DNA of 40,559 nucleotides from a virus (lineage: Duplodnaviria > Heunggongvirae > Uroviricota > Caudoviricetes). The stretch's first letter is position 1, and the number at the start of each line of letters is the position of its first letter. The translations under genes were made by a program, and so were the position numbers. The DNA lies in IMG/VR virus record IMGVR_UViG_2541047813_000005, positions 1 to 40,559 of that record. One strand, 5' to 3'. This document shows, one piece after another, positions 1 to 26,584 of the stretch. Under the pieces are notes generated by a model. The model saw only the letters and a program-made list of their open reading frames with translations. It was not told the origin of the DNA and did no database searches.

Positions 1-223
1 TCAGCTATCAATGAGAAAATAAAATATAAATAAATCAATGCATTGAAACAAACCACTTAGCAGATACCACGAAAAATACCATGTCTCAATAATAGAGCTG
101 TCTACAGGCTGTTCAGACGAACAATATGGCCGCTCTACTCCTAATAGAGTCCTTAGCTCGGTCACATCACTAATTTCAACATAGATGTGAACAAAATGAG
201 GCATCAACGCACCTATTCAGTTA

Positions 224-1738
224 GTGTATTTGATATCGTATGTGGCAACAAAAAATGGAGTTACAATCTTGAAAGTAAGCGAGTTATCTAGCCAAATTGG
301 CCGACTTTACGGCTTAAACAACATCAACATAATTATGGGCCGAAACGGTGCGGGAAAAAGTCGTTTCCTTCGTGATATCGAACAAACAATCAGCCAGAAC
401 AAGCAGCAATTTTATGTCCGGTATGTAAGTCCAGAGCGAGCAGGATCGTTCAAGCGTGATGGCACCGTCCTCACAAATATGAGCGACAACCCCGAATGGC
501 TGAGGCACACTCGGGCAGTTAATCAGGCAAGCAACTTCAAAGCTGCATCGGCTATGCTATTTCGCGAGGCCGAGACGCTTTACTTACGTCGACTTGCCAA
601 TACTCCGGAAATTCGAACTGATCTAACGCGAAACTTTCAGACAGACCGATTAAGTAAAATTAATCAGCTTCTCACTAACATTTCGCTCGAGATGGGTAAT
701 GTCGATTATGAGTTTCGATCACTTGTAGATGGTCAGATTATTGATCCGGCCCAAATCAGTAGCGGTGAATCGGAAGCGGTTGCATTAGCCGCGGAAATCA
801 TCTATTTCTTCGACACAATAGATCCGGAGAAATTCAACGTACTCCTCCTCGATGAGCCTGATGTACATCTGCACCCCGACCTCCAAGCTAGACTGGGCAA
901 GCTGATAATCAGTATGCTCGACGAATTTAGAACACACGCGAACAGTATTGCCATATGCTTATCCACCCATAGTTCCCCGCTCGTCTGTTCTCTTGCCGCC
1001 TCCCCATATGTATCAATCGGCACGAAGAGCTTTGCAGTGAATGAAATCTCATTGATACCGGCCAGCGATGAACTTCGAAAGATTGCACCATTCTTCGGGC
1101 ACCCCCTATCGCTTTCTCTTAGCGAAGACGCTGCATTAATTTTGGAAGGAGAGGACGACGAACGAGTCTGGCAACAAGCGGCCAGAACATCACAGGGTCG
1201 AATAAAAATCTTTCCCGTACTAGCAGGTAGCGTAGATCAACAGAGTCAACTTGAGGATTTTTGCGTAGACCTCCTTAGTACACTCTATGACAATCCAATC
1301 GCCTTTTCCCTTCGTGATGGCGATGGTGTAATCAACGAGTCGCTTGAACATCGCCTACCTCTTAAACGCTATCGCTTACGATGCTACGCTATCGAAAATG
1401 TTCTTTTGACTGATTCATGCCTTGCAGTAATGAATGTTACATGGGTGGAATTTGTAGACGCAGCCAAAAAATGGGTTGAGGATAATCAAACACACTCCGA
1501 CATAGCGTTGATTGCAAAACTAATGGAATCGAACGACCGATTGCGTCACAAGAAGATCAAGAAAATCCGCCAACTCGTCTGTGCTATTGTTGAGTGTAAA
1601 AAACCTTGGGAGGTAGTAGTTGGACAAGCAATCGGGGCATTGACCAGAGAAGACCTTGAAAACTCGAATATGTTGATCGATTTTCTTGGAGGAGAGATGG
1701 TCAGCGACGTCATCTTCAGGGACGCAATAAACCCATGA
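224..1738 (+). CDS. ABC-type ATPase fused to Toprim/OLD-like nuclease domain (candidate anti-phage defence protein)
   Basis: 504-aa ORF; Walker A 'GRNGAGKS', Walker B/D-loop 'LLLDEPDVHLHP', H-loop-like 'STHSSP'; C-terminal acidic motifs 'ILEGEDDE' and 'LRDGDG' resembling the Toprim Glu and DxD; likely true start TTG at 269 (GGAG 8 nt upstream). Confidence 0.65.
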   Translation: MYLISYVATKNGVTILKVSELSSQIGRLYGLNNINIIMGRNGAGKSRFLRDIEQTISQNKQQFYVRYVSPERAGSFKRDGTVLTNMSDNPEWLRHTRAVNQASNFKAASAMLFREAETLYLRRLANTPEIRTDLTRNFQTDRLSKINQLLTNISLEMGNVDYEFRSLVDGQIIDPAQISSGESEAVALAAEIIYFFDTIDPEKFNVLLLDEPDVHLHPDLQARLGKLIISMLDEFRTHANSIAICLSTHSSPLVCSLAASPYVSIGTKSFAVNEISLIPASDELRKIAPFFGHPLSLSLSEDAALILEGEDDERVWQQAARTSQGRIKIFPVLAGSVDQQSQLEDFCVDLLSTLYDNPIAFSLRDGDGVINESLEHRLPLKRYRLRCYAIENVLLTDSCLAVMNVTWVEFVDAAKKWVEDNQTHSDIALIAKLMESNDRLRHKKIKKIRQLVCAIVECKKPWEVVVGQAIGALTREDLENSNMLIDFLGGEMVSDVIFRDAINP

Positions 1739-1753
1739 GAATGACCTGATACT

Positions 1754-2149
1754 ATGACCACGATTGATCCGCCCTCATGGTATCAGTATTTATTTTATAA
1801 CCCGCCTCTCAATACACCAAGAGATTGCGGTAAAGTGGAGCAGCATGATTACCAGCTTTATCTGGCGATAAATGATATTGAGCATACGAAAACGAAAGCA
1901 ATGTCATCTAAGACCAATAGTATCTGCGAGCAGTTCCATAAAACGATACTGAACGAGTTTTATCAGGTGACGTTCCGCAAAAAGTTATATGATGATCTTG
2001 AAGCATTACAATCGGTTCTTGATGAATGGCGGGTTCACTATAATAATGAGCGAACCCATCAGGGAAAAATGTGCAGTGGCCGAACGCCGATGGAAACGTT
2101 ACTTGATGGAAAGCACATCTGGGATGAGAAAAACTTAAGCCAGATGTAA
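1754..2149 (+). pseudogene. IS transposase C-terminal remnant (DDE/rve integrase-core fragment)
   Basis: 131-aa ORF abutting the ATPase stop; C-terminal 'EWRVHYNNERTHQGKMCSGRTPMETL' matches the conserved tail of rve-type transposases; no N-terminal or DD part present. Confidence 0.55.
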
Positions 2150-2242
2150 TCTGACAGATACCTTTATAAATAGCCGGTAATTGTCAGATCAGGTCTGATC
2201 TAATACAACTTAACTGTGTTATGAGCAATACTGAGGATGGAT

Positions 2243-3013
2243 ATGGAACCAGAGAAATTTGCTGAAACTGCAATAGGATTTACCAAAAGCCCTCTTGGTA
2301 TCATTGCACTCTTTATTGTTCTCGTTTATGGATTTGCCTCTTTCGTCGTTGGCTTTGGTAATGGCTTATCAGAGCATATAGCTCCCCTTATTTATTTCAT
2401 GGTTTTCTTTCCTGTCATTGTGTTTCTTGGCTTTCTCTGGCTTGTTGCGAAACATCATAATAAGCTTTACGGGCCGTCAGATTTCAAAGATGAAAATAAT
2501 TTTTTAAGAGCGCAAATAGCTACAGCAGCATCATTGACCGCCGCCACAGCAAAACAGCCTGAAAATAGTGCAGGGGTCACTGAAAGCCAACTGCGAAAAA
2601 TCGTCAACGTTGTATCCAATGCAAAACGGCAGAGTAAGCATGAAAAATGGCGAAATCGTATTTTATGGGTGGATGATCGACCAGAAAATAATGTTTACGA
2701 AAGACAGGCATTTGAGGCACAGGGAATAGAGTTCGCTTTAGCTCTTTCAACTGACGAAGCCTTAGAATTGTTAAAAACAAATAAGTTTGCAGCTATTATT
2801 TCGGATATGGATCGCAAAGAAGGGGCGCAAGAAGGTTATGTCTTACTAGAAAGATTACGCGCAATGGGAGACAAAACTCCTTTTATGATCTATGCGTCCT
2901 CAGATCTACCAGAGCACAAGAGAATGGCGAGAGAAAGAGGTGCAATTGGCTCCACTAATCGAGCAGAAGAACTCTTTCAAATTGTCATGGGTGCGATTAC
3001 CAATGGCTCATAA
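2243..3013 (+). CDS. Membrane protein with two N-terminal TM helices and C-terminal CheY-like receiver (REC)-like domain
   Basis: ORF 2237..3013; ATG at 2243 preceded by GAGGA; hydrophobic segments 'LGIIALFIVLVYGFASFVVGFG' and 'LIYFMVFFPVIVFLGFLWLV'; REC-like pattern 'ILWVDD', 'AAIISDMDR', 'FMIYASSD'; AT-rich codon usage. Confidence 0.55.
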   Translation: MEPEKFAETAIGFTKSPLGIIALFIVLVYGFASFVVGFGNGLSEHIAPLIYFMVFFPVIVFLGFLWLVAKHHNKLYGPSDFKDENNFLRAQIATAASLTAATAKQPENSAGVTESQLRKIVNVVSNAKRQSKHEKWRNRILWVDDRPENNVYERQAFEAQGIEFALALSTDEALELLKTNKFAAIISDMDRKEGAQEGYVLLERLRAMGDKTPFMIYASSDLPEHKRMARERGAIGSTNRAEELFQIVMGAITNGS

Positions 3014-3230
3014 CAAAGCCATTAAATTCGCCCCCTACGGCTACGGTTGCCGGGCGCTCACAACGGCCAGTATCTCATTTGTCGATTTGATCGATCTCAT
3101 TGTAAGCACTTCCGGCTAGACTGTTTTGGAATACCGCCATTTTGTTGGTAATGGCTTTTATCTTTAGGCCATAGCCGATGTTATAGAGTTACGGCCTTAA
3201 AAATAGAAGTCATACACTCAATGAAAAACC

Positions 3231-3263
3231 AATAAAAAATGCCAGTCAGCAAACTGACTGGCA
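3231..3263 (-). terminator. Rho-independent terminator ending the leftward lysis operon
   Basis: Hairpin gccagtcag/ctgactggc (3241..3263) followed on the minus strand by a U-run (plus-strand A-run 3231..3240). Confidence 0.55.
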
Positions 3264-3409
3264 TTAAAGTTAGTTGGAAAGGCTTAATTTACTATTTATA
3301 GCCAGTCCTACTCCCACTCAATTATTTACGACAACCATAACCAATTGAGTGATAACACTTTTCCAAGCCTCAACTTTTCCCGTACCGTTTTATATACCGT
3401 CACCGGAAA

Positions 3410-3907
3410 TCAGTGCCACGATTTTTGCTTCTTCAGTGAATCGTATTGCTGCTCGCAGAATTCCCCTGCGATACGATACTTTTCAGCCTCAGCTGCTGTT
3501 GCGTTGTAAACTCGGTTGCTTTCTTCAAGCATGTCGGCGAGCACACCGATGACCTTGCTGGCTGGCGTGCCAGGTGGGAAAGATCCGGTATAGTGTTCGG
3601 CGAGCCGCCTGGTTTTGTCAAGCTCGGCGCGCATGCTGTCAGCAGCGGAATTAGCATACTCAGCATCAGCACGCGCCGCATCGATACGGGATTGTGCTTC
3701 ACGTTCAATTTGTGTTTTCTCCTGCTCACGCTGTGACCTTAACTTATCATCAGCCTGTTTCTGATCTTCCTTCGCCTGCGCATACCCGGCATCGTACTGA
3801 CGGATGCCGTGCACATTCCAGGCAACAACTCCTGATATGACCAGAACAGCAAGCATCGCCACGATAAGTAACTGTTTACGGTATGCTTTTACAAATGCCC
3901 AGATCAT
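3410..3907 (-). CDS. Rz-like i-spanin (inner-membrane spanin)
   Basis: 165 aa; N-terminal TM helix then charged coiled-coil-like periplasmic region; last gene of lysis cassette; overlaps endolysin stop. Confidence 0.65.
3433..3681 (-). CDS. Rz1-like o-spanin lipoprotein embedded in the +1 frame of the i-spanin gene
   Basis: Embedded ORF with signal peptide and lipobox '[12 protein letters not shown]', proline-rich mature part; start codon choice (3681 or 3666) uncertain. Confidence 0.45.
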   Translation of the reverse strand: MRRVLMLSMLIPLLTACAPSLTKPGGSPNTIPDLSHLARQPARSSVCSPTCLKKATEFTTQQQLRLKSIVSQGNSASSNTIH

Positions 3908-4831: not shown

Positions 4832-5222
4832 CGTCTTTTCTCCCCGGAATTAACTCGCGTGGATTATCTGAACGGTGATAGAGCCAGATGCCAATTCGAA
4901 CTGCGACGATTGCTGACACGAATGCACCAGCAGAGAAAACAATCCCTTTCTCAAAAGAGTCCTGTGTGATGGTAGGGATCAGGGTGGCTATGCCGATAAG
5001 AATTGATGCTGCTGGTTTGTAAAAGAGAAGACCGCAAAGAAAGCTGAGCATCGACAGGAGCACCCGGCGGCGGATTGGATATTCTACAGCAGAGGTAACA
5101 AAAATTACTGCACCAGCCAAAGAACCCAACGCCACTTCTGGAGGTACTCCAGCTATTACTGCCGCAAGAGAACTCATACTAAGCCACTGATTTAAAGACT
5201 CACTAGTTAGTTGAACTGACAT
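4818..5222 (-). CDS. Putative holin / lysis-cassette membrane protein
   Basis: 134 aa, multiple predicted TM segments, first gene of the lysis cassette, overlaps next gene by 14 nt. Confidence 0.45.
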   Translation of the reverse strand: MSVQLTSESLNQWLSMSSLAAVIAGVPPEVALGSLAGAVIFVTSAVEYPIRRRVLLSMLSFLCGLLFYKPAASILIGIATLIPTITQDSFEKGIVFSAGAFVSAIVAVRIGIWLYHRSDNPRELIPGRKDDGNA

Positions 5223-5378
5223 AAAGACCGCCGATTACTGTGTATAATCCACCCCATTGGTTATTGGGTTTATAATACACATAAACCATATATGAATTAA
5301 ATTTTATGAGTCCACCTATCTCTAAATTACCCGTGAGGTGATATTGTTTCGTATCGCTATTTCCTACAGTATGGATAT

Positions 5379-5740
5379 ATGAATAACAGACATAATTGCT
5401 TTGACGTGATCAGGCTTATCGCATCACTTGTAGTCCTTGTAAGCCATCAATACCCAATTAGCGGCAGACCTGAGCCTTGCTTTTTCGGACTTACGTCGAT
5501 AGGTGGCATTGCTGTAATTGCTTTTTTCGCCCAACTAAACGTAACATCTTCGAAAAATATGCAAAGATTAGGATCAATCAGCGGATGATTTTTATCCATT
5601 CATTTTGCGCGGGTAAGTTATGTGGTGGGTTATCGGCATCCTTTCCGTGGTTCTCATCGTGGCGACGCTTGTCGTTAGGTCACATCTGCAGGATATTGAT
5701 AATGACTATTAGCCATAAGTGGTTTCAACGCTTTGGGTAA
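5379..5740 (+). pseudogene. Truncated/frameshifted acyltransferase-3 family (O-antigen acetyltransferase-like) lysogenic-conversion gene remnant
   Basis: N-terminus 'MNNRHNCFDVIRLIASLVVLVSHQ' matches the acyltransferase_3 start motif; reading frame breaks after about 70 aa; only about 120 codons remain before the convergent tailspike gene. Confidence 0.5.
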
Positions 5741-8078
5741 TGTAGTAGGCCACCCAGTTACCTGACTCATTAAATCTGTAAGCACAATTCAAACGAATCG
5801 GACCGATATTATTGAATGTGCTGAGCATTGTCCCACCAATACCATTTTTAACCAAAACTGTTGGGTTAGCAGATGATGACCCGGCTATCTTTATGTAAAC
5901 AATATCACCAACTACGGCAGACACTTTATCCAGCTCAATTGAATAGGTGAAGGCACCTGTACCAGCACTCATGATGATGTAGTACCTGGAGGGGTCAAGC
6001 CTTGGTTCTATTGTTAAAGTCCCAGCTGCTGCCACAGTGTGGTCGAGAAAGGTTCTCACCTGGAGGCTTGTATTTTGTGGAAACCTCGCCCTTGCCCTGT
6101 TGAAAGCGGGATCCATCACTGCGTAAAGTGGGCGAACGTTGTTTCTGTAGGATCTAACCAGAACATCACTACCGTGGAAGTCGTTGCTTTGTGATCCAGA
6201 AAGTGAGTGAACTGCCTCGACCTGGTTAATTGTCCCCTCTCCGACATAGCAGTCAGGGCTATTAACCACAAAATCGACGAACCTGATGTTTTGCGCAAAG
6301 TATGAGTTCAGGCGGAATGTGCTGTTTGTCGAGTTAACTACTGACTGAGCATTTGTGATTGAGTTGCCGACGATTGCGTGAATAGAGTTGATAGTCACTT
6401 CCTGGCAGTCAACCAGAAGCACCGCATCGTAAACAAGGTCAGTGGCAAATCCATCACTTTTATAGACTTCAATGTTTCCGATTTGCAGGGATGGCCTGTT
6501 TCTGGCTCGTACTCCGTTTTGCTTAACGTTGACGTGTACGTTATCGATAAATCCACCTGGCTCGCTGGCTGGGTTGGTTAGGTCGATTCCAACAAATGCC
6601 CCAAGCCCTTCGCTGTCCTTGACAACAAACCCTTCAACGCCGTCACTCAGTTCGACAAACTTCCACCAGTTGTTTGTGTTGAATCTGATGTCTACACCTA
6701 CGTTACCTCGAACGGACTTCATCTTAACGGCCACGCACTGGAATTGCGTACCTTCAACCTGCTGCACGTTATAGCTGCCGTATCCAGTGACATGCACTGA
6801 GCCGCTAAAAGCGTCGCCAATCAGCATGCCATTTACCCACGAATACTGTAGCACCGTCAGGTCATCACGCCCCTGTTGAGGACCGAAATGCGCTCCTAAT
6901 TTGAACTTCGCCCGGTGCGCAGTGAACATTTCCTCCCTGAGTGGAGTAAGAATACCGTACCGACCATTTCCGTTTTCCAGGCGAATCATGAATTTTCCGA
7001 TGTCGGCTTCTCCCTGGGAATAACTGGACTCCGGGTAGCTAACGGCCAGACCTACGGTCGATGCTGAGTCAGCATCCTTCACGCATAACTGGGTTTCTGT
7101 CCCAGCCGTATAAATTTTCACGCCATAGGGAACGGTTACGCACGCCGTCAGTGCGGAATCCCCTGTATGGTAGTTATCCATATCCAGAGAAACACCATTT
7201 GTAGGGCTCACCAGATATTTTCCTGCTGGCCAATAGAGTACCTTAGCTCCGCAATTGGACCAGCGGTTTAGGGCAAGAGTGTCATCTGCAATACCATCTC
7301 CCTTTGCTCCGAAGTGGTAAGGGGTAAGAAGATAGGTGTTGTGCTGATGTTGAGTAATAGTTACAGAATTAGCATAAGGTTGTTTAACTGCAACTAAAGC
7401 ATCCCCCTTTCCATCGGAAGAACTTGCTAACTGAATAAGCACATCAGATGCTGAACCAGATGGAGGAATAACAACAATCGCATTACCATCATTATCAAAT
7501 GCTGGCATCATATTCCGCCGAACTGCTGCTGGAGGTAACTGATTTATTGGCTCAGGAACTCGGAGAGTTCGGCTAAGGTTAGAGAATACAATGGTATCTA
7601 CATAGTTTTTTGTAGCTGCATCCTGAGGGTCGCGTGGGTCTTTCAGATTACGAATATAGTTATTAAGTGCGTCATACCAATTCGCTATACTGGATGGCTT
7701 ACACAACGCCAGCCGGAACCAGCTTCGAACCTGCTGAATCAGCATCGTTAGCTTATCAAAAGCATCCTCATGCACTTCTGCAAAGAACTTACCCTGATTA
7801 CGCAAATCAGTTTCCTGCGTAACCGGGAGGTCTCGTGATATAGAAATCTGATAACCGTTAGCCAACGCCTTCGACAGAATTACATTACCGCCGTTGTACC
7901 CTCCCGCACCAGTTACTGTGTAATCAGTATCAAGAGCCAGCACAGCAATATTTTCATCAAGGTCAACCACCTGAACAACCAGGTCTGATTTTTTGAAAAT
8001 ACGGAAGGTATACGGAAATGATGTCGTAACGCCGTTACCTGTGTATTCGTTGTGGTCAACTTCGGTTGAGACCGTCAT
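5709..8078 (-). CDS. Tailspike / tail fibre protein (receptor-binding)
   Basis: 789 aa; N-terminus 'MTVSTEVDHNEYTGNGVTTSFPYTFRIF' resembles the conserved particle-binding domain of podovirus tailspikes; Gly/Asn/Val-rich body consistent with beta-helix. Confidence 0.75.
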   Translation of the reverse strand: MTVSTEVDHNEYTGNGVTTSFPYTFRIFKKSDLVVQVVDLDENIAVLALDTDYTVTGAGGYNGGNVILSKALANGYQISISRDLPVTQETDLRNQGKFFAEVHEDAFDKLTMLIQQVRSWFRLALCKPSSIANWYDALNNYIRNLKDPRDPQDAATKNYVDTIVFSNLSRTLRVPEPINQLPPAAVRRNMMPAFDNDGNAIVVIPPSGSASDVLIQLASSSDGKGDALVAVKQPYANSVTITQHQHNTYLLTPYHFGAKGDGIADDTLALNRWSNCGAKVLYWPAGKYLVSPTNGVSLDMDNYHTGDSALTACVTVPYGVKIYTAGTETQLCVKDADSASTVGLAVSYPESSYSQGEADIGKFMIRLENGNGRYGILTPLREEMFTAHRAKFKLGAHFGPQQGRDDLTVLQYSWVNGMLIGDAFSGSVHVTGYGSYNVQQVEGTQFQCVAVKMKSVRGNVGVDIRFNTNNWWKFVELSDGVEGFVVKDSEGLGAFVGIDLTNPASEPGGFIDNVHVNVKQNGVRARNRPSLQIGNIEVYKSDGFATDLVYDAVLLVDCQEVTINSIHAIVGNSITNAQSVVNSTNSTFRLNSYFAQNIRFVDFVVNSPDCYVGEGTINQVEAVHSLSGSQSNDFHGSDVLVRSYRNNVRPLYAVMDPAFNRARARFPQNTSLQVRTFLDHTVAAAGTLTIEPRLDPSRYYIIMSAGTGAFTYSIELDKVSAVVGDIVYIKIAGSSSANPTVLVKNGIGGTMLSTFNNIGPIRLNCAYRFNESGNWVAYYITQSVETTYG

Positions 8079-25765: not shown

Positions 25766-26584
25766 ATGAAAAACTTCAAGGTAATTAGCATGTTTGAATC
25801 GTTTAAAGAGCTGTTTTTATCTACTGCCAATACTGCCGTGAATCGAGCCAAAAACCCTGTGCTTGGTGCTTTTGTTATGTCCTGGTGCGCCTTCAACTGG
25901 AAATCAATTCTTTATCTATTTTTTAGCAAATCAAACATAATAGATAAAATTTCATATATCTCAGATAACAGCACATGGAAAACTGTTATGTTTTATCCAT
26001 GCTTATCTGTAATTGCTATCTGCTGCCTATTACCATGGGTAAACAATATCATTAACGTATGGCAAGCAAAGCCTCTTGATAATAATGACTCAATCGAAAA
26101 TCACCTGAAGGCAAGAAAAATCCAGCGTGAAACCAGACTGCAGAGGTTATTGGCTAAAAAAGATGTTACATACGACAAAGTTAAGACTGGCGCGGAAAAA
26201 GACATCCAAGAGATGAAAGAAGAGATTATTCGATCAAAGAATAGTATGGGGGAATTGACTGCCGAGTTGAAAGCTAAAGATGACGAATTGAGATCCGCCA
26301 GTGCTCAGTTAGCAGCTCTAAATCATTCATTAAAAGAGATATCGGAAACTCTGGGAAGAATGAATGAGGCATATAAGACCCTCCAAAATGATTTCGACGA
26401 ATACAAACTCAAATACCCTGAAAAATCTCAAATAAAAAGCCTTGCACTTGGCAACGGCCAAACAATTAGCAACTTTTTGGAGCAACACAACTTATCCGGA
26501 TTAAAATCTGGTAAGCCAAACGTTTTTAATAACTTTGGTGTTCTATCTGGATTATCAGGTTTCGATGATAAAAATAAAGACTAA
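25766..26584 (+). CDS. Cargo (moron) protein: N-terminal hydrophobic/membrane region plus long coiled coil; function unknown, candidate exclusion/abortive-infection factor
   Basis: ORF 25694..26584, probable start ATG 25766; AT-rich codon usage unlike flanking late genes; opposite strand; stop overlaps terL stop convergently. Confidence 0.5.
   Translation: MKNFKVISMFESFKELFLSTANTAVNRAKNPVLGAFVMSWCAFNWKSILYLFFSKSNIIDKISYISDNSTWKTVMFYPCLSVIAICCLLPWVNNIINVWQAKPLDNNDSIENHLKARKIQRETRLQRLLAKKDVTYDKVKTGAEKDIQEMKEEIIRSKNSMGELTAELKAKDDELRSASAQLAALNHSLKEISETLGRMNEAYKTLQNDFDEYKLKYPEKSQIKSLALGNGQTISNFLEQHNLSGLKSGKPNVFNNFGVLSGLSGFDDKNKD

What the first reader, a model, noticed from the sequence alone, without database searches (positions are those of the whole stretch)
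224..3013. AT-rich islet (ATPase-Toprim, IS scar, TM-REC) as a possible composite defence locus
The three left-end ORFs have visibly lower GC and different codon usage from the prophage, and an IS transposase remnant sits between the two intact genes. Either they were one two-gene module split by an IS insertion, or two independent cargo genes accreted at an integration hotspot. An ATPase-nuclease paired with a membrane receiver protein would be an undescribed combination.
Basis: inference. Interest (0 to 1): 0.6.

Follow-up and report, generated by a model that had tools for sequence, protein, structure and literature searches.

The report
Two unrelated cargo genes beside guaA
The AT-rich islet is not a two-gene defence system and not part of the prophage: it holds two independently mobile single genes, a compact PARIS-like ATPase-nuclease and a stranded integron-cassette gene for a membrane-anchored receiver protein, which piled up at the guaA integration hotspot of E. 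coli and were joined by an IS-mediated deletion.

Summary
In detail: three ORFs, 43.5% GC against 49.2% in the prophage, and an IS481-family transposase remnant between two intact genes. The "composite defence locus" reading is not supported.

The islet (window 4-3307) fills the yfgI-guaA gap, which is 92 bp in K-12. It is bracketed by duplicated guaA 3'-end cores (TCCCACTC, the reverse complement of the known GIsul2 site GAGTGGGA). It predates the prophage, which used the same core.

ORF1 (269-1738) is a solitary ABC ATPase fused to an AriB/DUF4435-like Toprim domain. It rides on a ~1.9-kb integrase-less element found at guaA in E. coli, P. aeruginosa and (near guaA) Serratia.

ORF3 (2243-3013) is a 2TM + receiver protein with integron-cassette boundaries. 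Relatives sit in attC arrays, one of them beside an IntI gene.

Of 46 other TM-REC genome loci and 75 other ORF1 metagenome loci, none carries the partner gene. The pair occurs only as this one IS-scarred composite (28 of 5,426 E. coli genomes, Kluyvera, and five near-identical metagenome contigs).

The most interesting by-product is the conserved 2TM module. It defines a large family (at least 1,287 clusters) that matched no model or paper I searched, with swappable cytoplasmic heads.

The parts
1..3 (.). Last 3 nt of the displaced original guaA 3' end (TCATTCCCACTCA); left att-core copy that marks the left edge of the islet
   Evidence: K-12 homology ends at window 3 and resumes at about 3312 with a 9-bp overlap. 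The core is the reverse complement of the GIsul2 site GAGTGGGA (PMC9376610).
4..1823 (+). ORF1 mini-element: a discrete integrase-less unit (leader, ORF1, short 3' arm), truncated at its right end in E. coli
   Evidence: The same boundaries are seen in Serratia L058-60 (window 2-1824, 92% identity) and P. aeruginosa L050/51 (window 1-1812, 74%). In P. aeruginosa it is flanked on both sides by TCACTCCCACTC cores and abuts guaA.
4..268 (+). Conserved non-coding leader / left arm of the ORF1 element
   Evidence: Conserved in four lineages, with indels that break the antisense 68-aa ORF. Only weak evidence for a hairpin over the RBS and TTG start.
269..1738 (+). ORF1, 489 aa: ABC ATPase (residues ~1-270) fused to an AriB/DUF4435-like Toprim nuclease domain (residues ~285-400) and a helical C-terminus
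   Evidence: Pfam AAA_15/AAA_21. Invariant Walker A GRNGAGKS, signature SSGESE, Walker B LLLDEPD, H-loop THS, and Toprim motifs EGEDDE, RDGDG, YAIEN. The C-terminal domain hits only PADLOC AriB (10 of 10 members, best E = 4e-7) and AriAB, and Pfam DUF4435 weakly (10 of 10). Top Foldseek hits are GajA, retron Eco8/Eco7 ATPases, PtuA and AriA.
1824..2207 (+). IS481-family IS remnant: 3' third of the transposase gene plus the intact right terminal inverted repeat (2182-2207)
   Evidence: NF033577 E = 9e-23. 87% DNA identity to a complete IS481-family copy; IR pair identified in L061.
2218..2226 (+). Cassette 5' boundary core GTTATGAGC (R'-derived)
   Evidence: DNA similarity to distant TM-REC loci starts exactly here. 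It is the exact reverse complement of 3006-3014. The same geometry is found in 8 of 34 loci against a 0.2-0.4% control rate.
2243..3013 (+). ORF3, 256 aa: TM-REC protein with two TM helices (residues 17-38 and 43-75), invariant juxtamembrane HHxKLYGPSDF, a low-confidence linker, and a cytoplasmic receiver domain (residues 139-254)
   Evidence: AF2 model and secondary structure. REC confirmed by Pfam, a PDB profile search and Foldseek. D144, D145 and D188 are invariant; the T87 equivalent is A218 and the K109 equivalent is R240.
3006..3014 (+). attC R'' core GCTCATAAC overlapping the stop codon; the rest of the attC is lost in E. coli (fossil cassette)
   Evidence: Relatives L004, L007, L008 and L014 continue into foldable attC hairpins (L004 z = -6.5), whereas the window region does not fold better than shuffles (z = -1.3 and -0.8).
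3014..3307 (.). Right arm of the TM-REC-bearing module; supplies a + strand terminator-like hairpin (3136-3155) and the terminator now serving guaA (3238-3265, - strand)
   Evidence: Shared at 89% identity with Rosenbergiella L034 through to the guaA end. Terminator scan. The K-12 guaA terminator remains left of the islet.
3308..3322 (-). guaA stop codon plus its last four codons (CTACTCCCACTCAAT): right att-core copy. This is the functional guaA end in the 22 listed full-islet genomes whose match runs into guaA; in this strain it was displaced by the prophage.
   Evidence: In those genomes the islet match ends at 3322 inside guaA. The prophage follows from 3323, with its integrase next to guaA beyond the window end.

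Best explanation
The islet is a layered deposit at the guaA 3'-end attachment site, not one system. Shown: in K-12, yfgI and guaA are 92 bp apart. In 28 of 5,426 E. coli genomes a 3.3-kb insert sits there, bracketed by a duplicated guaA-end core. In this strain a prophage later used the same core.

Layer 1 (window 4-1823) is a ~1.9-kb integrase-less mini-element whose only gene is ORF1, an ABC ATPase fused to an AriB/DUF4435-like Toprim nuclease.

Layer 2 (2218-3307) carries ORF3, a 2TM + receiver protein whose gene has integron-cassette boundaries. In other phyla this gene sits in attC arrays, one of them 2.3 kb from an IntI gene. In E. coli it is a stranded cassette without a functional attC.

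Inferred: an IS481-family element inserted about 10 bp upstream of the cassette. A deletion running leftwards from inside the IS then removed the IS's left two-thirds, the right arm and core of the ORF1 element, and whatever lay between. This produced today's adjacency once, and that composite then spread among enterobacteria.

Inferred mechanisms. ORF1 most likely acts alone as a compact PARIS/OLD-type abortive-infection enzyme: the ATPase senses a phage cue and licenses the Toprim domain to cut tRNA or other nucleic acid. ORF3 most likely acts alone as a cytoplasmic receiver head controlling a conserved 2TM membrane module, and it has no dedicated kinase.
For: Location and age: searches show the islet between yfgI and guaA. 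At least 22 of the 28 genomes have no prophage at this junction, and the prophage integrase lies next to guaA.

att duplication. The core matches the published GIsul2 site.

ORF1 unit with conserved ends at guaA in P. aeruginosa and near guaA in Serratia. guaA is the only recurrent neighbour in 73 metagenome loci.

Cassette nature of ORF3: DNA similarity is confined to 2218-3016; R'/R'' reverse-complement geometry in 8 of 34 loci against a 0.2-0.4% control rate; attC hairpins; attC-like repeat arrays in L004, L014 and L020; IntI in L004 at 275.6 bits against a cut-off of 265.

No co-occurrence:.

Single origin of the composite: 28 of 28 E. coli copies share the same spacing at >=99.5% identity, Kluyvera L003 is 97% identical and includes the IS scar, and five metagenome contigs carry the same composite.

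IS anatomy.
Against: Within E. coli, Kluyvera and the five metagenome contigs the two genes are always together, so a functional interaction acquired after the fusion cannot be excluded.

The order of events and the IS-mediated deletion are reconstructed, not observed. No intermediate was found with a full IS or with both complete modules.

Only 8 of 34 TM-REC loci show perfect cassette geometry, and my own attC detector failed, so the fraction of copies that are true cassettes is uncertain.

No biochemical or phage-challenge data exist for either protein.
Confidence: 0.85

Rival explanations
1. Original hypothesis: ORF1 and ORF3 form one ancestral two-gene defence module (ATPase-nuclease sensor/effector plus membrane receiver) that was split by an IS insertion.
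For: The two genes are on the same strand and adjacent, both are intact, both have low GC, and they are always together in the 28 E. coli genomes, in Kluyvera and in five metagenome contigs.
Against: 0 of 46 other TM-REC genome loci have an ORF1 homologue within 10 kb, and 0 of 75 other ORF1 metagenome loci have TM-REC (39 of the 80 loci have at least 1.5 kb downstream). The P. aeruginosa, Mesorhizobium, Sphingobium and Serratia ORF1 contexts also lack TM-REC. Each gene has its own unit boundaries and its own mobility mechanism. All co-occurrences carry the same IS scar, which means a single event. The IS is a truncated remnant whose left break coincides with the end of the ORF1 unit, indicating a deletion that created the adjacency rather than an insertion that split it.
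Confidence: 0.03
2. The genes are independent in origin but now cooperate: the islet works as a small defence island in which ORF1 and TM-REC give additive or synergistic protection, which would explain why the composite was retained and spread among enterobacteria.
For: Both ORFs are intact in all 28 E. coli copies at >=99.5% identity. ORF1 is PARIS/OLD-like, and a 75%-identical homologue lies next to a CI-like repressor in a prophage-like contig. Integron cassettes are a documented reservoir of defence genes. The REC subtype and the pYEATS heads tie the TM family to conflict systems. HipBA and STAND NTPase genes share the hotspot in other genera.
Against: High identity may simply reflect recent clonal spread: prevalence is 0.5% of genomes. 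The Rosenbergiella TM-REC copy at guaA is a decaying pseudogene. ORF3 has no PADLOC hit. No expression or phenotype data exist.
Confidence: 0.1
3. ORF3 is not conflict-related. It is an accessory signalling protein, a membrane-tethered orphan receiver that acts as a phosphate sink or modulator for host hybrid kinases or Hpt relays.
For: The acidic pocket and phospho-acceptor Asp are invariant. The best sequence and fold matches are ordinary receiver domains, including that of the hybrid kinase RcsC.
Against: The T/S switch residue is invariantly Ala, and the Lys is Arg, Asn or Lys. No kinase or Hpt gene is a conserved neighbour. The same 2TM module carries nuclease-like, pYEATS and wHTH heads that have nothing to do with phosphorelay. 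The closest REC outside the family sits in a kinase-less VMAP conflict locus.
Confidence: 0.2

Closest known systems
PARIS (AriA ABC ATPase + AriB DUF4435 Toprim), including the merged single-gene AriAB clades (PMC11464382)
   Same: ORF1 has an AAA_15/21 ABC ATPase followed by a Toprim domain whose only PADLOC matches are AriB and AriAB. The catalytic-type motifs are invariant. It is carried by mobile elements, and one relative lies in a prophage-like contig next to a CI-like repressor.
   Different: ORF1 is 489 aa, against a 694-position AriAB model (AriA and AriB are 55 kDa and 35 kDa). The ATPase insertion region between Walker A and the signature motif is short. The DUF4435 score is below Pfam's cut-off and the AriAB profile match is partial (residues 85-396). 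No two-gene relatives were found. Trigger and target are unknown.
Class 1 OLD-family nucleases (P2 Old; single-polypeptide ABC ATPase + Toprim)
   Same: Single-gene ATPase-Toprim architecture. Foldseek aligns nearly the full length to the OLD-like proteins GajA and the retron Eco8 effector.
   Different: No match to the OLD-type Toprim model PF20469 even at E <= 10. The nuclease domain is of the DUF4435/AriB kind.
Integron gene cassettes encoding phage defence (BRiCs; Kieffer 2025, Darracq 2025, Getz 2025, as cited)
   Same: ORF3 is a promoterless single-ORF unit with R'/R'' cores. Relatives lie in attC arrays, one next to IntI. About a third of validated BRiCs contain TM helices.
   Different: The E. 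coli copy is outside any integron and lacks a foldable attC. No member of this family was mentioned in the integron-defence papers I searched. A defence role is untested.
GIsul2-type elements that integrate at the guaA 3' end (PMC9376610)
   Same: Same target core (GAGTGGGA, which reads TCCCACTC on the window strand), duplication of the guaA end, and tandem accretion at one site.
   Different: The islet encodes no integrase, no transfer genes and no resistance genes. It is a remnant, or an element that depends on an integrase supplied in trans.
Receiver-domain modules in kinase-less vWA-MoxR (VMAP) conflict systems (Kaur et al. 2020, PMC7159879); Detocs DtcC as a looser analogue (from my own knowledge)
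   Same: The REC of ORF3 is 44% identical, including its signature motifs, to the REC of a 1,509-aa REC+SLOG protein in a VMAP locus (L155). In both cases no histidine kinase is associated.
   Different: ORF3 is a stand-alone 256-aa membrane protein with no vWA, MoxR or VMAP partner. It gave no hit to any PADLOC model at E <= 0.1 and has no kinase or buffer genes as conserved neighbours.

Membership tests
PARIS / merged AriAB | ABC ATPase of the AAA_15/AAA_21 type with intact nucleotide-binding motifs | tested here: met
   Pfam AAA_15 E = 5.5e-14 and AAA_21 E = 1.3e-11. Walker A, signature, Walker B and H-loop are invariant in 16 homologues.
PARIS / merged AriAB | DUF4435-type Toprim nuclease (AriB) | tested here: inconclusive
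   Pfam DUF4435 is hit by 10 of 10 members, but at E = 0.001-0.014 and 15.6 bits against a cut-off of 27. PADLOC AriB is hit by 10 of 10 members, best E = 4e-7, with no other nuclease model matched. A PDB profile search of the domain finds nothing significant.
PARIS / merged AriAB | Full-length agreement with the AriAB architecture (large ATPase with helical insertions plus AriB) | tested here: not met
   The PADLOC AriAB match covers residues 85-396 against model positions 220-523 of 694. ORF1 is only 489 aa, with about 130 residues between Walker A and the signature motif.
PARIS / merged AriAB | Phage-trigger-dependent tRNA cleavage and abortive infection | not testable with these tools
   Requires phage challenge and tRNA analysis.
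Class 1 OLD nucleases | Single polypeptide with N-terminal ABC ATPase and C-terminal Toprim | tested here: met
   No genuine split versions were found.
Class 1 OLD nucleases | OLD-type Toprim domain (PF20469) | tested here: not met
   No PF20469 hit at E <= 10 in any of 10 members.
Integron gene cassette (ORF3) | Single ORF bounded by a GTT core at the 5' end and an attC beginning with the complementary R'' at the 3' end | tested here: met
   The window has GTTATGAGC at 2218-2226 and GCTCATAAC at 3006-3014. The same geometry is found in 8 of 34 loci against a 0.2-0.4% control rate.
Integron gene cassette (ORF3) | Complete, foldable attC recombination site | tested here: not met
   This applies to the E. 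coli copy: no hairpin better than shuffles (z = -1.3 and -0.8). Relatives L004 (z = -6.5), L008, L007 and L014 do have one.
Integron gene cassette (ORF3) | Residence in an attC array downstream of an integron integrase | tested here: not met
   Not met in E. coli, where the gene lies at guaA. Met in relatives: IntI in L004 (TIGR02249, 275.6 bits against 265) and repeat arrays in L004, L014 and L020.
Two-component response regulator | Receiver fold with acidic pocket (DD) and phospho-acceptor Asp | tested here: met
   D144, D145 and D188 are invariant and align to the RcsC and CheY acceptor sites. Foldseek TM-score 0.85, rmsd 2.1 A.
Two-component response regulator | Conserved Thr/Ser and Lys switch residues | tested here: not met
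   The Thr/Ser position is invariant A218. The Lys position is R240, with K or N in a few homologues.
Two-component response regulator | Cognate histidine kinase or output domain | tested here: not met
   No conserved neighbour in 45 loci. The only other part of the protein is the 2TM module.
Detocs and other PADLOC-modelled defence systems (ORF3) | Match to any PADLOC model, and a kinase/buffer/effector gene context as in Detocs (three-gene architecture stated from my own knowledge) | tested here: not met
   No PADLOC hit at E <= 0.1 and no kinase gene among conserved neighbours. I did not verify which systems PADLOC v2.0.0 includes.
guaA-targeting integrative element (GIsul2-like) | Insertion at the GAGTGGGA core of the guaA 3' end with duplication of the core | tested here: met
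guaA-targeting integrative element (GIsul2-like) | Element-encoded tyrosine integrase | tested here: not met
   No integrase ORF in window 1-3322. The only integrase nearby belongs to the prophage.

The most novel reading that the evidence does not exclude
The conserved 2TM + HHxKLYGPSDF module of ORF3 defines a large family of single-gene conflict proteins (at least 1,287 clusters at 50% identity) that matched no Pfam or PADLOC model and no paper I searched, and that is often carried on integron cassettes. Under this reading the membrane module is a common effector (pore or depolarising device) controlled by interchangeable cytoplasmic heads: kinase-less REC, PD-(D/E)xK-like, pYEATS, wHTH, CBM-like. 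TM-REC would then be a one-protein abortive-infection switch. Separately, the 1.9-kb integrase-less ORF1 element would be a satellite-like cargo unit that is moved in and out of guaA by the integrases of co-resident phages, ICEs or GIsul2-type islands.
Probability: 0.3. Interest if true: 0.7.

Novelty: new variant of a known kind. Interest (0 to 1): 0.42.

Why it matters
For the scan, this is a cautionary case. A "composite locus" at the edge of a predicted prophage turned out to be chromosomal hotspot debris captured by boundary overshoot, and the adjacency was created by an IS-mediated deletion. Biologically, three points are useful:

1. The guaA 3' end works as a multi-layer accretion site for small cargo across genera, including a recurring integrase-less 1.9-kb unit.
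2. ORF1 is an unusually compact fused ABC-ATPase/AriB-like Toprim protein. It could serve as a minimal model of PARIS/OLD-type sensing.
3. ORF3 exposes a very large, widely transferred family of small membrane proteins with modular heads. The family occurs in integron arrays of Proteobacteria and Bacteroidota and in other phyla, and neither the domain libraries nor the papers I searched describe it. It is cheap to test because it is a single gene.

Tried and rejected
1. Two home-made attC detectors were too strict or insensitive and did no better than controls. I replaced them with three other tests: the R'/R'' geometry test, attC repeat arrays, and IntI detection.
2. Fold search against afdb50 was unavailable.
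3. I looked for two-gene (AriA/AriB-like) versions of the ORF1 family. P0437 is a frameshifted single-polypeptide homologue, and P0438 and P0450 are truncated or at a contig edge. Rejected.
4. The antisense 68-aa ORF at window 1-207 is not conserved as coding sequence.
5. 'CCTCTCAAT' at 1805-1813 looked like a possible internal att core. It is conserved inside the element's right arm in Serratia and P. aeruginosa, where the real core lies ~100 nt further on. Rejected as the crossover site.
6. An Rfam scan of 1-3500 found nothing at E <= 0.1.
7. A profile of the ORF1 nuclease domain against PDB sequences gave no significant hit.
8. The plasmid search gave only a chromosome filed in the plasmid collection.
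9. Literature searches for the two RefSeq accessions and for this hotspot in the E. coli defence-island survey found nothing.
10. The promoter scan gave fewer sites than shuffles, so no promoter is claimed for ORF3.
Full report
OBSERVATION. The three ORFs exist as described. ORF1 is best started at TTG 269, giving 489 aa. That is the annotated start, and all homologues begin MKVSEL there. ORF3 is annotated from 2243 (256 aa). The finding's span has 43.5% GC against 49.2% for the rest of the window, and no 2,790-bp window of the prophage is that low. ORF1 matches AAA_15/AAA_21 ABC ATPases. ORF2 is the C-terminal part of an IS481-family transposase. ORF3 has a receiver domain just above Pfam's cut-off.

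WHERE IT IS. The window is E. coli chromosome, 100% identical to NZ_CP095086. The islet lies between yfgI and guaA, which in K-12 are separated by only 92 bp. Of the 28 E. coli genomes with the full islet, at least 22 have it directly abutting guaA with no prophage. In six genomes, including this one, a prophage lies between the islet and guaA, with its tyrosine integrase next to guaA just beyond the window's right end. The islet is therefore older than the prophage and outside it. IMG/VR holds this region as a predicted viral contig with the two genes at the same coordinates as in the window, so the window looks like a prophage call whose boundary overshot.

HOW IT GOT THERE. K-12 homology stops at window position 3 and resumes at about 3312 with a 9-bp overlap inside the guaA 3' end. 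The left junction reads ...TCATTCCCACTCA|GCTATC and the right one CTACTCCCACTCAAT (window 3308-3322). This is an att-type duplication in which the incoming DNA supplies a new guaA end and a new terminator (3238-3265, minus strand), while the original end and terminator are displaced to the left. The shared core TCCCACTC is the reverse complement of GAGTGGGA, the published integration site of GIsul2 at the 3' end of guaA (PMC9376610). The prophage reused the same core.

TWO SEPARATE UNITS. blastn of the islet against all fetched loci splits it cleanly.

Window 2-1824 is one unit. It has the same ends in Serratia (92% identity) and P. aeruginosa (74%). In P. aeruginosa it is bracketed by TCACTCCCACTC cores and abuts guaA, and in a second strain an ICE has inserted at that same core. 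In Serratia and P. aeruginosa the unit continues for about 100 nt to the core. In E. coli that last stretch is replaced by the IS remnant. The unit has no integrase.

Window 2218-3016 is the second unit. In distant taxa the similarity covers only the ORF3 gene and about 25 nt upstream of it. In Rosenbergiella the similarity runs from 2374 to the guaA end (89%), with no ORF1, and that copy is a decaying pseudogene.

ORF3 IS AN INTEGRON CASSETTE. The 5' edge of the unit is GTTATGAGC (2218-2226). Its exact reverse complement GCTCATAAC (3006-3014) overlaps the stop codon. This R'/R'' geometry recurs in 8 of 34 testable loci, including Bacteroidota copies with GTTAGGCAC/GTGCCTAAC, against a control rate of 0.2-0.4%. 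Downstream of the gene, L004, L008, L007 and L014 fold into attC-like hairpins (L004 z = -6.5). L004, L014 and L020 carry arrays of similar repeats at roughly 0.7-3 kb spacing, with ORF3 in one slot. L004 has a bona fide integron integrase 2.3 kb upstream (TIGR02249, 275.6 bits against a cut-off of 265), and L045, which carries a 2TM relative, has an IntI-like ORF too. The E. coli copy keeps both cores but has no foldable attC, so it is a stranded cassette. The gene is spread across Proteobacteria, Bacteroidota, Chlorobiota, Kiritimatiellia, Cloacimonadota and others at 58-98% identity.

Among 47 species-level genome loci with a TM-REC homologue and up to 10 kb of flank, only Kluyvera L003 has ORF1, and L003 is the same composite, IS scar included, at 97% identity. 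No neighbour of TM-REC is conserved. Among 80 metagenome loci with an ORF1 homologue, TM-REC appears only in the five that are 99-100% identical copies of this composite. The other 75 have none, and guaA is the only recurrent neighbour. The genomic contexts in P. aeruginosa, Mesorhizobium, Sphingobium and Serratia agree. In E. coli the two units are found in the same 28 genomes with identical spacing and >=99.5% identity, which indicates one event. The two-gene-module hypothesis is therefore not supported.

THE IS SCAR. IS-homologous DNA spans 1824-2207, with the right terminal inverted repeat intact at 2182-2207. That repeat ends 10 bp before the cassette core and 36 bp before the ORF3 start codon. 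The left ~800 bp of the IS are absent. The left break coincides with the truncated end of the ORF1 unit. The simplest reading (inference) is that the IS inserted just upstream of the cassette and an adjacent deletion then fused it to the ORF1 unit. The deletion created the adjacency rather than interrupting an operon.

WHAT ORF1 IS. All ABC ATPase motifs are invariant across 16 homologues of 71-94% identity from alpha- and gammaproteobacteria and unnamed metagenomic sources. So are the Toprim-type motifs EGEDDE, RDGDG and YAIEN. Its best PADLOC hits are ATPase models (PDC-M01A, AriA, AriAB, NsnB, PtuA, GajA). The C-terminal 220 residues on their own hit only AriB (10 of 10 members, best E = 4e-7) and AriAB in PADLOC, and only DUF4435 in Pfam (10 of 10, below the cut-off). 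They never hit the OLD-type Toprim model. Foldseek aligns the model (mean pLDDT 72.7) best with GajA, retron Eco8/Eco7 ATPases, PtuA and AriA. PARIS is known to occur as merged AriAB genes (PMC11464382), but ORF1 is far smaller and matches the AriAB profile only partly. I found no genuine split versions. A 75%-identical homologue lies directly downstream of a CI-like repressor in a prophage-like contig. I therefore place ORF1 as a compact, divergent PARIS/OLD-type single-gene system. Its defence function and its target are inferred, not shown.

WHAT ORF3 IS. The AF2 model (mean pLDDT 66.9; the REC domain about 80-89) shows two TM helices, a disordered linker and a (beta-alpha)5 receiver domain that superposes on solved receivers (TM-score 0.85). 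From the positive-inside rule (reading the sequence directly), both termini are cytoplasmic. D144, D145 and D188 are invariant, but the Thr/Ser switch residue is invariably Ala and the Lys is mostly Arg. No kinase is linked.

The N-terminal 96 residues are more conserved than a simple membrane anchor would need to be. They define a family of at least 1,287 clusters at 50% identity. Of 110 representatives, 22 have REC, 5 have pYEATS, a few have wHTH, DUF4760 or others, and most have no Pfam domain. The largest C-terminal class carries a D...(I/V)E(I/V)K motif suggestive of a PD-(D/E)xK fold (motif-level inference). No Pfam family at significance and no PADLOC model matched the module.

Outside this family, the nearest REC (44% identity, sharing the WVDD-P-NN, DMGR-EG, IYA and G-TN-AEELF motifs) lies in a 1,509-aa REC+SLOG protein of a vWA-MoxR/VMAP locus on a Rhizobium plasmid. 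The paper that defined those systems noted receiver domains without kinases (PMC7159879). Integron cassettes are established reservoirs of defence genes, and many of the validated ones encode membrane proteins. Together this makes a conflict-system role plausible (my estimate is about 0.3-0.4) but unproven.

VERDICT. The sequence description is right. The functional pairing is not supported, and the accretion alternative is. Each gene is a member or variant of a known kind: a PARIS/OLD-like ATPase-Toprim protein, and an integron cassette encoding a protein of unknown function. Neither protein, nor this hotspot's contents, appears in the literature I could search. The finding as posed deserves a modest score. 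The 2TM cassette family and the integrase-less guaA mini-element are the leads worth keeping.

Noticed in passing
window 3323-40559 and beyond the right end: The window matches an IMG/VR predicted viral contig whose boundary overshoots into chromosomal DNA on the left. On the right it stops short of the prophage's own tyrosine integrase, which lies next to guaA. The prophage integrated at the same guaA core as the islet.
   Followed up: partly
window 1-268: The 268-nt leader of ORF1 is conserved in E. coli, Serratia, P. aeruginosa and a gut metagenome lineage. Indels break the antisense 68-aa ORF (1-207). RNAalifold suggests a hairpin covering the RBS and TTG start, but with only four sequences and a covariation term of -2.06 this is weak.
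   Followed up: partly
L050 7885-11910 (P. aeruginosa): A 1,341-aa HTH + nSTAND NTPase gene sits at the edge of an ICE (TrbI, DUF2274) that inserted at the guaA core immediately after the ORF1 element. This would be another likely defence gene in the same hotspot.
   Followed up: no
L058-L060 7780-9054 (Serratia); L034 5366-6942 (Rosenbergiella): HipA or HipBA toxin-antitoxin genes occupy the guaA hotspot in two other genera, next to ORF1 or to the TM-REC remnant.
   Followed up: no
L155 489-8805 (Rhizobium phaseoli plasmid pRphaN671d): A vWA-MoxR/VMAP-type locus with a trypsin-like peptidase, an EAD5-VMAP-M4-VMAP-C protein, a MoxR ATPase and a 1,509-aa protein with REC and SLOG cluster-4 domains. 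Its REC is 44% identical to that of ORF3.
   Followed up: partly
L043, L044, L047 (2TM + nuclease-like head); L045/L046 (2TM + CBM_4_9-like head): The 2TM module of ORF3 is fused in other phyla to heads carrying a D...(I/V)E(I/V)K motif (PD-(D/E)xK-like) or to a beta-sandwich with a weak CBM_4_9 match. L045 also has an IntI-like ORF about 2.9 kb away.
   Followed up: partly
L091, L092, L097, L102, L082 (gut and other metagenomes), upstream of the ORF1 homologue: A ~1,300-aa ORF of unknown function recurs upstream of the 76-83% ORF1 homologues that abut guaA. These loci may all come from one related lineage.
   Followed up: no
window 18537-18547: A second exact copy of TCCCACTCAAT lies inside the prophage. 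This is compatible with chance: 12 of 100 shuffles gave at least 2 matches.
   Followed up: yes
window 5379-5588 and the low-GC patch 5001-6000: A short ORF whose N-terminus (MNNRHNCFDVIRLIASLVVLVSH...) resembles, from my own recollection and not a tool result, the start of acyltransferase-3/OafA-type O-antigen modifying enzymes. It appears truncated and lies beside a 789-aa ORF that PGAP annotates as a hypothetical protein.
   Followed up: no
window 25501-26500: This is the lowest-GC patch inside the prophage (0.39-0.44) and a possible moron or accessory gene.
   Followed up: no
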